Positions 42,950 to 47,501 are shown, counted from the first letter of the stretch. The stretch: 64,000 nucleotides of DNA from Candidatus Tayloriibacteriota bacterium (GCA_052034805.1 JBPOID010000007.1:26495-90494); one strand, 5' to 3'. Made by a program: numbers and translations. Notes: generated by a model from the sequence alone, not told the origin.

Positions 42950-43192
42950 TTAAATAGTAGCAAGATATATCTGAACAGTACCAATACCAATTGAAACAAT
43001 GATCGCAACTATTGCTAAATATAGAGATGATTTTGCAAAACGTTCGGAAGATTCTTCATTTTTCAATGCTAACCTTCTAAGTAGTTCATATTGAGAGAGT
43101 ACACCGAAACTAGGGTCTGAATTATTAATTATTTGAAATAATTCCTCTTCATTAAGTTTTCTCACATCTTTACCAAAATTTGTATTATTCAT
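42950..43192 (-). CDS. Small tail-anchored hypothetical protein (shortened from ORF 42950..43366)
   Basis: The long ORF reads through the tRNA gene. The start is moved to MNNTNFGK immediately downstream of the tRNA. C-terminal TM helix. Confidence 0.35.
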   Translation of the reverse strand: MNNTNFGKDVRKLNEEELFQIINNSDPSFGVLSQYELLRRLALKNEESSERFAKSSLYLAIVAIIVSIGIGTVQIYLATI

Positions 43193-43197
43193 TTCTG

Positions 43198-43270
43198 CTC
43201 CGCGACCAGGGCTCGAACCTGGGACATCCTCGTTAACAGCGAGGCGCTCTACCAACTGAGCTATCGCGGA
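43198..43270 (-). tRNA. tRNA-Asn (anticodon GTT)
   Basis: Reverse complement folds as a cloverleaf. Acceptor TCCGCGA/TCGCGGA, D-arm GCTCAGTTGGTAGAGC, anticodon stem CCTCG/CGAGG with loop CTGTTAA, T-arm CCAGGTTCGAGCCCTGG. No CCA encoded. Confidence 0.85.
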
Positions 43271-43307
43271 ATATCCTCTTTTAAAGAGTATTGCTATAAT
43301 AGCAAAT

Positions 43308-43520
43308 ATGTATATAAAAGTGAAGGTTATAACAGAATCAAGGAAAGAAGAAATAAAAAAAGTCAAAGATGATCATTATGATATATCCATAAGAGAAAAA
43401 GCAGAAAATAATAAAGCAAATAATAGAATATTAGAAATCTTTAGAGATTTATATCCAAATGTTTCTATAAAGATAATAAGCGGTCATCATTCTCCAAGTA
43501 AAATATTAAGCATTGATTAG
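43308..43520 (+). CDS. DUF167 (YggU-like) family protein
   Basis: IKVKVITESRKEEI...ANNRILEIF...ISGHHSPSKILSI matches the UPF0235 pattern ending G..S..K. Confidence 0.5.
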   Translation: MYIKVKVITESRKEEIKKVKDDHYDISIREKAENNKANNRILEIFRDLYPNVSIKIISGHHSPSKILSID

Positions 43521-43969: not shown

Positions 43970-44144
43970 TTAAATGCCAGCCTTTTTTACTCAAAAAGTA
44001 AATCAATATTTATGTATAGCTCTTATATCTCTTATGACTTTTTGGGTTGTATTGTATTACTTTACTGTAAAGGCTGAAATTATAGGTGAAAATATAATAG
44101 CTTCAAATATTATTCATAATGAAGCCAAATAATATTTTGTAGTT

Positions 44145-45533
44145 TTATCTTAGGAAATCTTTATAAAGCATTTCCTTTTTACCTTCTGGTATTACTTTTT
44201 CTATGAAAAGCATTCCATCTTTATATGATGCTTTTGTTATTTTTACTCTTATATTTTTGTGAAAGAAAAAGGCAGATGGCCATGTATCATATGCTTGTAT
44301 TTTGAGATAATTTTTATATGGATCATCATTTAAATCTATTTTTCCATCTTCTTTTTCTATTTTATCTGTATATGTAGCTTTTGTATGATCTTGTTCTATT
44401 GCTTTTATTTTTCCATTTATCCAATCAGGTAATATTTCTACTAGGAGATCACTACCAGTTTCTACTAGAGCTTTACCTAATACATCTTTCTTTGGTGGCC
44501 ATGGTTCTACTGAGATTTCTTTTGAAGCTACTATAGGTCCATGATCCATTTCACTATCTATACTCATTATAGTTACTCCAGTCTTCCTATCATCAGAAAG
44601 TATTGCACTTTCTATAGGGCAAGAACCACGATATTTGGGTAATAGGGAAGCATGAATATTCAGAGTTTTTGCTTTTGGTATATTTATTATATTATCGGGT
44701 ATTATTTTCCCATAGGCGATAACGACGAATACATCACAATTGTATTTCTTTAATTCCTTTTCTAATTCTTTATTATCTCTTAATTTTACTGGTTGTATTA
44801 CTGGTATATTATGTTCATTTGCCCAAACTTTTGCTTCGGATGCTGTTATATTTAGATTTCTACCTTTTGGTTTATCTGGTGAAGTTACTACGAAAGAAAT
44901 ATGGAATCCTGCTTTATATAATTTCTCCAAGGTTATTGTGGAATAATACGGTGTACCGAAGAATCCTATTTTTATTTTATTATTAGGTCCTTTTCTTGTT
45001 TCTATTTTTTCAAGAATTATTTCTTCACCTTCTGGTGGGGAATCTTTCACATGATAGGCATTATCTATAAATAATATTCCATTCAAATGATCTATTTCAT
45101 GTTGGAATACTTGAGCCAATATTCCACTAGCACCTCTTTCTATCTTTTCTCCTTTTTCATTGTATGCTTTTATTATTACCTTTTTTGCCCTTTTCATCAT
45201 TCCGTATTTCCATCTTACGGAAAGACAACCTTCTTCTACTTCTTGTTTTTCTTTTGAGATTTTCAATATTTCTGGATTTATGAAAATAAGATCAGATCCA
45301 TCGCCTTTGTATTTCTTATCTGCAGATTTTAATACTTCTCCAGATACTACGAATATTCTAAGACTTTCTCCTATCTGAGGTGCGGCTATGGCTATACCGT
45401 CATCTTGACTCTTTAGGGCTATTTTCATATCCTCGATAATTTCTTTTATTTTTGTAGAATTCATCTCGGCAACAGTTAAAGCCTTTGCTTTTTTTCTCAA
45501 GACTTCATTACCATTTTGAACTATATTTCTCAT
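44145..45533 (-). CDS. Fusion protein: peptide deformylase (N-terminal) + methionyl-tRNA formyltransferase (C-terminal)
   Basis: Def motifs GIAIAAPQIG, EGCLSV, HEIDHLNG in residues 1-165. Fmt N-domain FGTPYYS...NIHASLLPKYRGSCPIESAIL and C-domain follow in the same frame with no stop. Confidence 0.8.
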   Translation of the reverse strand: MRNIVQNGNEVLRKKAKALTVAEMNSTKIKEIIEDMKIALKSQDDGIAIAAPQIGESLRIFVVSGEVLKSADKKYKGDGSDLIFINPEILKISKEKQEVEEGCLSVRWKYGMMKRAKKVIIKAYNEKGEKIERGASGILAQVFQHEIDHLNGILFIDNAYHVKDSPPEGEEIILEKIETRKGPNNKIKIGFFGTPYYSTITLEKLYKAGFHISFVVTSPDKPKGRNLNITASEAKVWANEHNIPVIQPVKLRDNKELEKELKKYNCDVFVVIAYGKIIPDNIINIPKAKTLNIHASLLPKYRGSCPIESAILSDDRKTGVTIMSIDSEMDHGPIVASKEISVEPWPPKKDVLGKALVETGSDLLVEILPDWINGKIKAIEQDHTKATYTDKIEKEDGKIDLNDDPYKNYLKIQAYDTWPSAFFFHKNIRVKITKASYKDGMLFIEKVIPEGKKEMLYKDFLR

Positions 45534-45569
45534 ACTAATACTATACTTATTACTAGGCTTTATGGCAAA

Positions 45570-47501
45570 TTATAATAAATTCTCTGGATCAACTTTTATT
45601 GATACAGCGGGGGATAGGGAAATGAGCTTTTCTAATAGAACTCTATCAATCCATTTATCATTTTTCATTCTTATTAGTCCGTGTAATACATATTTTCCCC
45701 TAACTGTATGTGTGAATGCTGGGAAAACCTCGACTTCATAAGGATCTAATATATTTTGGGCTATTTCCATTTCTTTTACTATTTCATCTTTATTTCCTTC
45801 TAATGTAAGTTTTATTAGAGTTGAATATGGTGGATAATTGAATTTTTCTCTTTCAGAGATTGTGTCTTTATAGAAATCATTTGTATTACCTTTCATTCCA
45901 TATTCGAATATTTTCTCATCACTTTTTCTTGTTTGTACTATAAAGTCTCTAGTAGTTAATGATCTCATCTTTATTAGTATTTGTAGTATTTTTTCTTGTA
46001 TGCGGAAATCAGGTATTGAGAATAGAGAATCTAGGGATATTATTACAGAGTTTTCTATTTTATCATGCATATATTGAAGCATCATTTCTGTACCGAGTAA
46101 TATACTTCCTGGTTTATTGCGATATTTCTGCAATACCATTTTTGCTATTTTTTCATTTGGTGTATTCTGTGAATCTATACGGAAAACTTCTATATCTTTG
46201 AATTTATCTTTTATTTTCTCTTCTACCATATCTATACCTATTCCCAATACTGCTAGTTTCCAACTACCGCATACTTTGCAATATTCTTCTGTTGATCTTC
46301 TTTCTCCACATCTATGACACATGAAATAGCTTTTTTCTTCTCCTGTCCCTGATTTTATTTTATGAACTATAACTGGCAAACTACATTTATTACATGTGAC
46401 TATATTCTGACAATCTCCACATACTGTAGTTGGTGCTATACCACGACGTAATGCGAATATCATCATTCTTTCACTTTGATCTTTTGTTCTCTGTATTAGT
46501 TCTTCTACTTCTTTTGAAATTATTTTGAAACTAGAAATTTCTTCTTTATTTTCTGTACTTTTCTTTACTCCATATCCTTTCATATCTATCAATGTATCTT
46601 TCGATGTGGAAAGTGATCTAAATTTGAAAGGTGATCCTTCTACTATTTCTCCTTTATTTTTCCTATACAATGTTTCTATTCTAAGGAAATTATCTGAGAA
46701 AAATATTTTCACATTTCTTTTTTCTGCTACTATTTCGGCATAATGTCTCATATCTATATATGGTCTATGTAATGTTTTGTATGCACGACTACTTTCTTTC
46801 TCTACTATTATTGTATCTATATCGTTTCTAGGTATTACTAGGAAAGCTCCAGTCGAAATCACTACTATAGGATGTTCTTCTTTCATCACTGTATTCCATG
46901 TTTCTATCATTTTCTTTTCACCCAGAGAGCTATGAAGTATAAAGGCATAACCTTCTATGCCTTTCTCGAGCATTGAAAAGGCATAATCTGCTTCTTCTAT
47001 AGTAGGGAATAGGAAAAATAAACTTTTCTTTTTTGCGAATTCTTGGCGTATTAGACTTTTCCAATTCCCATAGCGTTCTTCATCATCTCCTTGTATGGCG
47101 TATTTATCTTTCTTGGTTTTATTTGTATTTGTCGAAATCTTTTTGTCTTTTGTTTTTAATTTATTTATATTTTTTAGAATATATTCTGGGATTATTGTAT
47201 TTATTATGCTACCCATATTGCTACAATAATAATCCGCCATATCCTTTACTATATCCATAAAATAATCAGGGAAGAATTCATCGCTTTTTACCTCCCCTAA
47301 TTTCTTCAAAGCAAAAGGACTTTTCTTTATTTCACTTTTCATTTCTAATGCTTCTTTTTTGGAAATAACTATTCCTTTTATAATCTTTTTTCTGAGTGGA
47401 ATATTCACTATAGAGCCAATATTTATATTCTGATCGGTGAAATATGATAATGTTTTCACTCCAACTGTCTTTGCTATTGGAATTACTTCTATAATAAACA
47501 T
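45570..47501 (-). CDS. Primosomal protein N' (PriA)-like with degenerate helicase motifs
   Basis: PriA-like N-terminal 3'BD (MFIIEVIPIAKTVGVKTLSYF...GIVIS) and Cys4-Cys4 zinc region (CGDCQNIVTCNKC...CHRCGERRS...CKVCG). No GxxxxGK[ST] Walker A. The DEEH position reads VEKE. Confidence 0.55.
   Translation of the reverse strand: MFIIEVIPIAKTVGVKTLSYFTDQNINIGSIVNIPLRKKIIKGIVISKKEALEMKSEIKKSPFALKKLGEVKSDEFFPDYFMDIVKDMADYYCSNMGSIINTIIPEYILKNINKLKTKDKKISTNTNKTKKDKYAIQGDDEERYGNWKSLIRQEFAKKKSLFFLFPTIEEADYAFSMLEKGIEGYAFILHSSLGEKKMIETWNTVMKEEHPIVVISTGAFLVIPRNDIDTIIVEKESSRAYKTLHRPYIDMRHYAEIVAEKRNVKIFFSDNFLRIETLYRKNKGEIVEGSPFKFRSLSTSKDTLIDMKGYGVKKSTENKEEISSFKIISKEVEELIQRTKDQSERMMIFALRRGIAPTTVCGDCQNIVTCNKCSLPVIVHKIKSGTGEEKSYFMCHRCGERRSTEEYCKVCGSWKLAVLGIGIDMVEEKIKDKFKDIEVFRIDSQNTPNEKIAKMVLQKYRNKPGSILLGTEMMLQYMHDKIENSVIISLDSLFSIPDFRIQEKILQILIKMRSLTTRDFIVQTRKSDEKIFEYGMKGNTNDFYKDTISEREKFNYPPYSTLIKLTLEGNKDEIVKEMEIAQNILDPYEVEVFPAFTHTVRGKYVLHGLIRMKNDKWIDRVLLEKLISLSPAVSIKVDPENLL

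What the first reader, a model, noticed from the sequence alone, without database searches (positions are those of the whole stretch)
44145..45533. Peptide deformylase and methionyl-tRNA formyltransferase fused in one 462-aa polypeptide
All three Def metal-binding motifs occupy residues 1-165. A complete Fmt (N-terminal formyltransferase core and C-terminal tRNA-binding domain) follows in the same frame. In most bacteria def and fmt are adjacent but separate genes. A covalent fusion of the enzyme that adds the formyl group with the one that removes it from nascent peptides is unusual. It could reflect genome compaction.
Basis: seen in the sequence. Interest (0 to 1): 0.6.

Follow-up and report, generated by a model that had tools for sequence, protein, structure and literature searches.

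The report
Real peptide deformylase–formyltransferase fusion gene
One real 462-residue gene in an uncultured Patescibacteria-type bacterium joins the enzyme that formylates the starting methionine to the enzyme that later removes the formyl group, but such a fusion has already been published for Exiguobacterium and recurs in relatives, so it is only a modest curiosity.

Summary
Window 44145..45533 (minus strand) is one uninterrupted 462-aa ORF. It has a peptide deformylase domain (residues 1-165, all three motifs), a roughly 20-residue low-confidence linker, and a methionyl-tRNA formyltransferase (187-462).

It is not an assembly error:
- The identical protein is on three contigs, and a 99% variant comes from another source.
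- Orthologues at 73-77% identity are also fused.
- Both halves show purifying selection.

The closest split relatives have the same gene order (murA-like, priA, def, fmt, then convergent hpf). In them def and fmt overlap by 26-32 nt in different frames, so a small indel is enough to fuse them. Other fused proteins are much more distant (43-56%) and have unrelated linkers, so the fused state has arisen, or been lost, repeatedly.

- The Fmt C-terminal domain is not full length. It lacks about 35 residues, as in all stand-alone Fmt of this lineage.
- "Genome compaction" is not supported. The fused gene is 1389 nt, longer than the split pair in the two closest relatives (1318-1324 nt).

A def-fmt fusion was already described and shown to be functional in Exiguobacterium (PMC12690207). 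This is a new, independently arisen member of a known kind. Interest is low to moderate.

The parts
44145..45533 (-). Whole def-fmt fusion ORF: 462 aa plus a TAA stop at 44145-44147.
   Evidence: The identical protein is on 3 contigs.
45039..45533 (-). Peptide deformylase domain, residues 1-165. Motif 1 GIAIAAPQ is at 45375-45398, motif 2 EGCLS at 45219-45233 and motif 3 HEIDH at 45087-45101. The domain ends in a short helix (155-158) and a strand (160-164). It has no long C-terminal helix.
   Evidence: Pfam PF01327, E 3e-44. TIGR00079 scores above its cut-off. The Def part matches PDB 4je6 with TM 0.77.
44976..45038 (-). Inter-enzyme linker, residues 166-186 (PPEGEEIILEKIETRKGPNNK). It is predicted to be flexible and varies in length and sequence among relatives.
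   Evidence: AF2 pLDDT is below 50 for residues 168-183. The 99%-identical variant P0001 has L174P here. Linker comparison is. dN/dS is higher than in the domains, though few codons could be aligned.
44364..44975 (-). Fmt N-terminal formyltransferase (Rossmann-type) domain, residues 187-390. It includes the Fmt-specific insertion loop at 218-235 (nt 44829-44882), N292/H294 (44637-44660) and D330 (44535-44549).
   Evidence: Pfam PF00551, E 1.3e-34. TIGR00460 scores 222.6 against a cut-off of 201.5. Foldseek to 4iqf/2fmt gives target TM about 0.8. Invariant columns are listed.
44148..44363 (-). Shortened Fmt C-terminal beta-barrel domain, residues 391-462. It keeps the PEGKKEM motif (nt 44169-44189). 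It lacks the equivalent of E. coli Fmt residues 255-275 and of the last ~14 residues.
   Evidence: Pfam PF02911 covers profile positions 1-48 of 100. AF2 strands are at 422-425, 428-438 and 441-449, with pLDDT above 90.
45570..47501 (-). The priA homologue immediately upstream on the same strand, with a 36-nt gap. It belongs to the conserved murA-like / priA / def / fmt gene order.
   Evidence: The same order is seen in L002-L004 and L014.

Best explanation
This is a genuine bifunctional gene. Peptide deformylase (residues 1-165) is joined by a flexible linker of about 20 residues to methionyl-tRNA formyltransferase (187-462). The host is an AT-rich (33% GC) uncultured bacterium of the Patescibacteria / Paceibacterota type.

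Origin. The ancestral arrangement was def followed by fmt, still seen in the closest relatives. There the end of def overlaps the start of fmt by 26-32 nt in another reading frame. A small indel removed the def stop codon and put the two genes in frame. In this strain the linker later grew to about 20 residues.

How it works (inferred). The two domains fold and act independently. The Fmt half formylates Met-tRNAfMet from 10-formyl-tetrahydrofolate before initiation. The Def half, a metal hydrolase using Cys103, His145 and His149, removes the formyl group from nascent chains. Many steps of translation separate the two reactions, so there is no substrate channelling. The fusion mainly fixes 1:1 co-expression and is probably close to neutral. 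That would explain why the fused state appears and disappears repeatedly among relatives.

Shown here: the ORF, the domains, the motifs, conservation of the fusion, purifying selection on both halves, and the split state of the nearest outgroups. Inferred: both activities and domain independence. These rest on motif conservation, the structure model, and the published complementation by the Exiguobacterium fusion.
For: - ORF and domains.
- Catalytic residues: all Def motifs are present. Fmt N292, H294, D330, R225 and the PEGKKEM motif are present, and they are invariant or nearly so in alignment A1.
- Not an artefact: the identical protein is on 3 contigs. The cluster is seen in both NCBI and Logan. 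P0001 is 99% identical, from NCBI/ENA.
- Fused orthologues: L005/P0003 and L006/P0002 show 76-78% identity in Def and 73-74% in Fmt.
- dN/dS is 0.13-0.20 for Def and 0.12-0.18 for Fmt within the fused clade.
- Closest split relatives: L002-L004 show 67-70% identity in Def and 71-72% in Fmt. They have the same synteny, with def and fmt overlapping in different frames.
- Other fused proteins are only 43-56% identical and their linkers are unrelated.
- AF2 with the alignment gives mean pLDDT 91, with pLDDT below 50 only at residues 168-183, and pTM 0.61.
- Fold matches are to Fmt (target TM about 0.8) and to PDF1A (0.77).
[quoted passage not shown] It is collinear with the window protein, 33% identical over 440 residues.
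Against: - No activity, transcript or protein data exist for this protein.
- Only 64 kb of the genome can be seen. There is no second def or fmt in it, but a stand-alone copy elsewhere cannot be excluded. Exiguobacterium does carry a second PDF.
- dS is near saturation, so the dN/dS values are rough.
- Domain independence rests on pLDDT and pTM alone, because no PAE matrix was available.
- An in-frame GTG at Val162 sits where split relatives have the fmt start. It could in principle give a separate Fmt, although no Shine-Dalgarno-like sequence precedes it.
Confidence: 0.85

Rival explanations
1. Assembly or sequencing frameshift. Under this reading the true locus holds two separate, overlapping genes as in the sister lineages, and a 1-nt error merged them.
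For: The closest relatives L002-L004 are split, with overlapping frames. One related contig, L014, does carry a frameshifted junction, so such differences or errors do occur in this kind of data.
Against: The exact 462-aa protein is on three contigs. A 99% variant comes from another source. Fused orthologues at 73-77% identity have different linkers. The other two frames across the junction are full of stops, and they offer no fmt start other than the in-frame GTG at residue 162.
Confidence: 0.02
2. The fusion is real but one half is a non-catalytic relic. A stand-alone def or fmt elsewhere in the genome would do the work, as Exiguobacterium keeps a second PDF.
For: Exiguobacterium genomes with the fusion also encode a second PDF (PMC12690207). 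Only 64 kb of this genome is visible.
Against: All Def motifs and the Fmt catalytic residues are intact. Both halves show dN/dS of about 0.12-0.20. Both score above the curated equivalog cut-offs. There is no second copy in the window. The Exiguobacterium fusion supplied both activities.
Confidence: 0.06
3. The fusion is adaptive rather than neutral. Tethering might bring Fmt to the ribosome through Def, lock the formylation and deformylation capacities to a 1:1 ratio in a very small cell, or stabilise a minimal Fmt. The recurrence of the fusion would then reflect selection.
For: Fused proteins fall in many separate places among Fmt relatives. There are 29 among the best 150 cluster representatives, a rough NJ tree needs at least 22 state changes, and linkers differ widely. 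The fusion has persisted in the window clade through divergence to about 73% identity. Def in this lineage lacks the long C-terminal helix that docks E. coli Def on the ribosome (own knowledge), so its C-terminus is free to carry a partner.
Against: Sister lineages do well with split genes. The linker is disordered, variable and tolerates Leu to Pro. The two reactions are not consecutive on one substrate. Overlapping or abutting genes give a high mutational supply of fusions. L007 needs only one stop-codon change.
Confidence: 0.12
4. One ORF gives two proteins. Fmt would also be made separately, by internal initiation at the in-frame GTG (Val162) or by proteolysis in the linker.
For: GTG162 lies where split relatives place the fmt start. 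The fused orthologue P0003 keeps a Met just before the Fmt core, in 'PPENMKANVGFFG'. The linker is predicted to be disordered.
Against: There is no Shine-Dalgarno-like sequence before GTG162, and there is no ATG between residues 1 and 323. Nothing indicates a cleavage site.
Confidence: 0.07

Closest known systems
Exiguobacterium Def-Fmt fusion (e.g. WP_021067074.1 = P0243; described in PMC12690207, Mol Biol Evol 2025)
   Same: The domain order is the same (Def at the N-terminus, Fmt at the C-terminus). The two proteins are collinear over 440 residues at 33% identity. All Def motifs and the Fmt catalytic residues are present. The size is similar (461 against 462 aa). [quoted passage not shown]
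   Different: It comes from a different phylum (Bacillota against Patescibacteria) and clearly has an independent origin. From HExDH to the first Fmt strand there are 20 residues, against 39 here. The Exiguobacterium Fmt half is about 40 residues longer: it starts at residue 154 of 461, the alignment ends at residue 402, and about 59 residues follow. The window's C-terminal domain is about 35 residues shorter than E. coli's. Exiguobacterium also has a second PDF, which is unknown for this organism.
Split def-fmt pairs of the nearest Patescibacteria relatives (loci L002, L003, L004)
   Same: The gene order is the same: murA-like, priA, def, fmt, then convergent hpf and DUF167. Identity is 67-70% in Def and 71-72% in Fmt. 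The Fmt is the same short form, and Def has the same ending '...D.PPE'.
   Different: There are two genes that overlap by 26-32 nt in different frames. Def ends at PPEI* or PPEM* in L003 and L004, and in a Lys-rich tail in L002.
Canonical def-fmt operon of E. coli (own knowledge; cited in PMC12690207 as Meinnel and Blanquet 1993 and Mazel et al. 1994)
   Same: The two enzymes are the same, in the same order and co-transcribed. The Fmt fold matches 1fmt/2fmt with target TM about 0.8.
   Different: They are separate polypeptides. E. coli Def carries a long C-terminal helix (own knowledge) that this protein lacks. E. coli Fmt has the full 100-residue C-terminal domain.
Other multi-domain proteins built on the formyltransferase fold: ArnA and 10-formyl-THF dehydrogenase
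   Same: They contain the formyltransferase N- and C-terminal domains fused to a second enzyme. They are structural hits with target TM about 0.76-0.80 for the isolated formyltransferase/hydrolase domains and about 0.38 for full-length ArnA chains.
   Different: The formyltransferase domain is N-terminal, the partner enzyme is unrelated to Def, and the substrates differ. The NCBIfam ArnA model scores far below its cut-off (124.6 against 777).

Membership tests
Peptide deformylase (PF01327 / TIGR00079) | Profile match above the curated cut-off. | tested here: met
   PF01327 scores 150.8 bits against 22.8. TIGR00079 scores 128.8 against 103.95.
Peptide deformylase (PF01327 / TIGR00079) | Three catalytic/metal motifs: GxGxAAxQ, EGCxS and (Q)HExDH. 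| tested here: met
   GIAIAAPQ is at 46-53, EGCLS at 101-105 and QHEIDH at 144-149. The motif definitions follow PMC12690207.
Peptide deformylase (PF01327 / TIGR00079) | Deformylase fold. | tested here: met
   The AF2 model is confident, with pLDDT mostly above 85 for residues 1-165. Foldseek to PDF1A 4je6 gives target TM 0.77.
Peptide deformylase (PF01327 / TIGR00079) | Deformylase activity on N-formyl-Met peptides. | not testable with these tools
   This needs an enzyme assay or complementation.
Methionyl-tRNA formyltransferase (TIGR00460) | Equivalog profile match above the curated cut-off. | tested here: met
   The score is 222.6 bits against 201.5, but only profile positions 2-250 of 315 are matched.
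Methionyl-tRNA formyltransferase (TIGR00460) | Catalytic Asn, His and Asp (E. coli N108, H110 and D146, from own knowledge) and the SLLP motif. | tested here: met
   N292 and H294 lie in NIHASLLPKYRG and D330 in MDHGP. All three are invariant in the 77-sequence alignment.
Methionyl-tRNA formyltransferase (TIGR00460) | The Fmt-specific insertion loop in the N-terminal domain that contacts the tRNA acceptor arm (E. coli residues 34-49 with R42, from own knowledge). | tested here: met
   SPDKPKGRNLNITASEAK at 218-235 aligns to the PDRPxGR loop of solved Fmt structures. P222 and G224 are invariant and R225 nearly so.
Methionyl-tRNA formyltransferase (TIGR00460) | Full C-terminal beta-barrel (tRNA-binding) domain of about 100 residues. 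| tested here: inconclusive
   The domain is present and confidently folded, but it is about 35 residues shorter. PF02911 covers positions 1-48 of 100. There is no counterpart of E. coli residues 255-275 or 301-314. All stand-alone Fmt of this lineage, about 280 aa long, share the shortening.
Def-Fmt fusion proteins (the kind described for Exiguobacterium) | Def and Fmt in one reading frame, with Def N-terminal and no stop codon between them. | tested here: met
Def-Fmt fusion proteins (the kind described for Exiguobacterium) | Common descent with the Exiguobacterium fusion. | tested here: not met
   Split relatives are far closer (67-72% identity) than the Exiguobacterium protein (32-36%), and the linkers are unrelated. 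The architecture is the same but the origin is independent.
Def-Fmt fusion proteins (the kind described for Exiguobacterium) | Both activities supplied by the single polypeptide. | not testable with these tools
   This has been shown only for the Exiguobacterium protein (PMC12690207).

The most novel reading that the evidence does not exclude
Def-Fmt fusions have arisen many times independently within Patescibacteria because the tether is advantageous. In these ultra-small cells a single polypeptide would be the only Def and the only Fmt. It would fix their ratio and possibly bring Fmt to the ribosome through Def, making the formylation cycle a single-protein module.
Probability: 0.12. Interest if true: 0.5.

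Novelty: new member of a known kind. Interest (0 to 1): 0.25.

Why it matters
The fusion gives a natural, independently evolved second example of a single-chain Def-Fmt enzyme, after Exiguobacterium. Here it is paired with a minimal Fmt C-terminal domain.

It also shows how easily adjacent or overlapping def and fmt genes switch between the split and fused states in this phylum. That makes the locus a convenient case for studying the dynamics of gene fusion and fission.

For annotation, these proteins are currently named as either 'peptide deformylase' or 'methionyl-tRNA formyltransferase'. They should be labelled bifunctional.

The finding does not change what is known about formylation and does not open a long-standing question.

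Tried and rejected
- Single-sequence AlphaFold2 gave a useless model with pLDDT 31. It was replaced by the run with an alignment.
- Literature searches pairing deformylase with 'candidate phyla radiation' and 'fused' found nothing. The 'gene fusion' / 'Rosetta stone' search found nothing relevant. Only the Exiguobacterium paper describes a def-fmt fusion.
The taxon is inferred from the names of relatives: Paceibacterota, Parcubacteria and 'Patescibacteria group'. The ENA label 'Candidatus Saccharibacteria' on L005-L008 may be generic.
- The promoter and terminator scan was not above the shuffled expectation. The TTGCCA-17-TATAGT site that ends 7 nt before the ATG is therefore not evidence.
- P0013 first looked like a stand-alone Fmt inside the fused clade. 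Its locus L014 turned out to be a frameshifted copy of the P0002-type fusion, with no proper fmt start. It was not counted as a split gene.
- The NJ tree of Fmt parts has no support values and the sampling favours fused proteins. Its numbers (at least 22 changes, 26 clades) are used only as a rough indication. The claim of independent origin rests on the identity rankings of both domains together with synteny.
- 'Genome compaction' was rejected on gene-span lengths.

Full report
**1. The observation**

Window 44145..45533 on the minus strand is a single ORF of 462 codons, from ATG to TAA.

- Pfam finds Pep_deformylase at residues 1-162 (E 3e-44), Formyl_trans_N at 201-366 (E 1.3e-34) and Formyl_trans_C at 391-438 (E 1.5e-8).
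- The NCBIfam equivalog models for both enzymes score above their curated cut-offs: fmt TIGR00460 at 222.6 against 201.5, and pept_deformyl TIGR00079 at 128.8 against 103.95.
- Against solved structures, residues 184-441 match Fmt chains (E about 1e-46) and residues 2-165 match Def chains (E about 1e-23).
- The three Def motifs are GIAIAAPQ (46-53), EGCLS (101-105) and HEIDH (145-149).
- The Fmt catalytic Asn and His (N292, H294 in NIHASLLP), Asp (D330) and the Fmt-specific loop (218-235) are all present. Their key residues are invariant or nearly so in a 77-sequence alignment.

The junction is at residues 166-186, nt 44976-45038.

**2. It is not an artefact**

- The exact 462-aa sequence is encoded on three contigs, including a Logan assembly of SRR34217542. 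It is recorded from both NCBI and Logan.
- A 99% variant (P0001) from NCBI/ENA differs at three residues. One difference is Leu174 to Pro, inside the linker.
- Two GTDB species representatives (L005 and L006, corresponding to P0003 and P0002) carry the same fusion at 76-78% (Def) and 73-74% (Fmt) identity. Their linkers are shorter.
- The other two frames across the junction contain many stop codons.
- Within this fused clade, Nei-Gojobori dN/dS is 0.13-0.20 for the Def part and 0.12-0.18 for the Fmt part. It is higher in the few alignable linker codons. dS is near saturation, so these values are approximate.

**3. Where it came from**

The window's gene order is murA-like (EPSP_synthase family), priA, def-fmt, then convergent hpf (Ribosomal_S30AE) and a DUF167 gene.

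The closest relatives outside the fused clade (L002, L003, L004) have exactly this order. Their Def is 67-70% identical and their Fmt 71-72% identical to the window's. In them def and fmt are separate genes overlapping by 26-32 nt in different frames. In L003 and L004, Def ends '...DIKDIPPEI*' (or PPEM*), while fmt starts at an ATG 32 nt upstream of that stop.

The fused proteins read:
- P0003: '...PPENMKANVGFFG'
- P0002: '...PPENENVKKIKIGFFG'
- the window: '...PPEGEEIILEKIETRKGPNNKIKIGFFG'

A small frame-restoring indel at the overlap is therefore sufficient to make the fusion, followed by linker growth in this strain. That step is an inference.

The fused gene (1389 nt) is not shorter than the split pairs (1318, 1324 and 1435 nt). 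Compaction is therefore not the explanation.

**4. The fused state is labile and polyphyletic**

Ranking by identity of the Fmt part:
- the three fused relatives come first, at 73-99% (with P0013, whose locus L014 is a frameshifted copy of the P0002-type fusion; see below);
- then about 95 stand-alone Fmt, at 63-72%;
- only then the other 18 fused proteins, at 43-54%.

The Def part agrees: split L002-L004 are at 67-70%, and the other fused proteins at 56% or less.

Other evidence:
- In a search of 1.84 billion cluster representatives, 29 of the best 150 are Def-Fmt fusions.
- Their linkers are unrelated in sequence. The distance from HExDH to the first Fmt strand ranges from about 14 to about 61 residues.
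- A rough NJ tree of Fmt parts needs at least 22 changes of state. It has no support values and the sampling is biased, so it is indicative only.
- Among GTDB loci, L007 has def and fmt in the same frame separated by a single TAA, and L008 and L009 are split.
- L014 is a frameshifted derivative of the P0002-type fusion.

**5. Structure and likely mechanism**

AlphaFold2 with the alignment gives mean pLDDT 91 and pTM 0.61. There are two confidently folded domains, and pLDDT falls below 50 only at residues 168-183.

- The Fmt half superposes on Fmt crystal structures (4iqf, 2fmt, 1fmt; target TM about 0.8). The Def half superposes on PDF1A (4je6; 0.77). No solved chain contains both.
- After the HEIDH helix, Def has only a short helix and a strand. 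It lacks the long C-terminal helix that docks E. coli Def on the ribosome (own knowledge). The stand-alone Def of L003 and L004 end at the same point, so the fusion does not destroy a docking helix.
- The Fmt C-terminal domain aligns to E. coli Fmt 195-254 and 276-300 only. It lacks an internal segment of about 21 residues and the last 14 or so residues. The ~280-aa stand-alone Fmt of this lineage share this shortening.

The best-supported reading is two independently acting enzymes on a flexible tether, made in a fixed 1:1 ratio. Channelling is not plausible because initiation and elongation separate the two reactions (inference).

Residual uncertainty:
- A separate Fmt could be made from the in-frame GTG at Val162. 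There is no SD-like sequence before it and no ATG before residue 323.
- A second def or fmt may exist elsewhere in the genome. None is present in the 64-kb window.

**6. Comparison with what is known**

A def-fmt fusion was reported in the four Exiguobacterium reference genomes. [quoted passage not shown]

That protein (P0243, WP_021067074.1) is collinear with the window protein at 33% identity over 440 residues. It has a shorter linker and an Fmt half about 40 residues longer, and clearly an independent origin.

A patescibacterial example (Candidatus Nealsonbacteria, P0233) is already labelled 'Multifunctional fusion protein' in UniRef. NCBI names the relatives either 'peptide deformylase' or 'methionyl-tRNA formyltransferase'. 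I found no paper discussing the fusion in Patescibacteria/CPR.

**7. Verdict**

The ORF is a real and most likely bifunctional Def-Fmt fusion. It is a new, independently arisen member of a kind already described and functionally validated.

- The Fmt C-terminal domain is truncated, not complete.
- The fusion is not rare in this phylum.
- Genome compaction is not supported.

Interest is low to moderate (0.25). The only potentially interesting angle is the repeated gain and loss of the fusion across Patescibacteria, and whether that recurrence is adaptive.

Noticed in passing
window 45570..47501 (minus strand): The PriA homologue just upstream has no Walker A motif ([AG]xxxxGK[ST]) and no DExH box by regex. 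It reads 'IQGDDEERYG' and 'IIVEKESS' where E. coli PriA has GVTGSGKT and DEEHD (own knowledge). Pfam detects only the 3' DNA-binding domain, and TIGR00595 scores 227.9 against a cut-off of 230.35. It may be an ATPase-dead PriA.
   Followed up: partly
window 43974..44132 (plus strand): A 52-aa hydrophobic ORF lies between the fmt end and hpf. It has no Pfam hit. A small ORF of 50-52 aa is called at the same place in L001 and L002, so it may be a conserved small membrane protein.
   Followed up: no
L014 2462..3789: This is a near-identical copy of the P0002-type fusion, with a deletion in the 'NAYDIKDCPP' region that shifts the frame. Def then ends in 'SAQKMRMLKK*' and fmt is left without a proper start; the gene caller starts at an internal Met. 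It is either an assembly error or a recent pseudogenisation.
   Followed up: partly
L007 3..1601: def and fmt are in the same reading frame, separated only by one TAA codon, and the fmt ATG follows two codons later. One point mutation would create a fusion.
   Followed up: yes
window 43197..43270 (minus strand): tRNA-Asn(GTT) is the only tRNA and the only Rfam match in the 64 kb. The 138-aa ORF 42950..43366 that overlaps it on the same strand is probably spurious.
   Followed up: no
window 45540..45568 (minus strand): A promoter-like TTGCCA-17-TATAGT lies within the 36-nt priA/def-fmt gap and ends 7 nt before the ATG. No Shine-Dalgarno-like sequence is visible. This could mean a very short leader, but the scan as a whole is not above chance.
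   Followed up: no
stand-alone Fmt homologues P0018-P0120 and window residues 391-462: All Fmt of this lineage are about 275-295 aa long, with a C-terminal domain about 35 residues shorter than in E. coli. The same holds whether they are fused or not. How this minimal domain binds tRNAfMet is an open question.
   Followed up: partly
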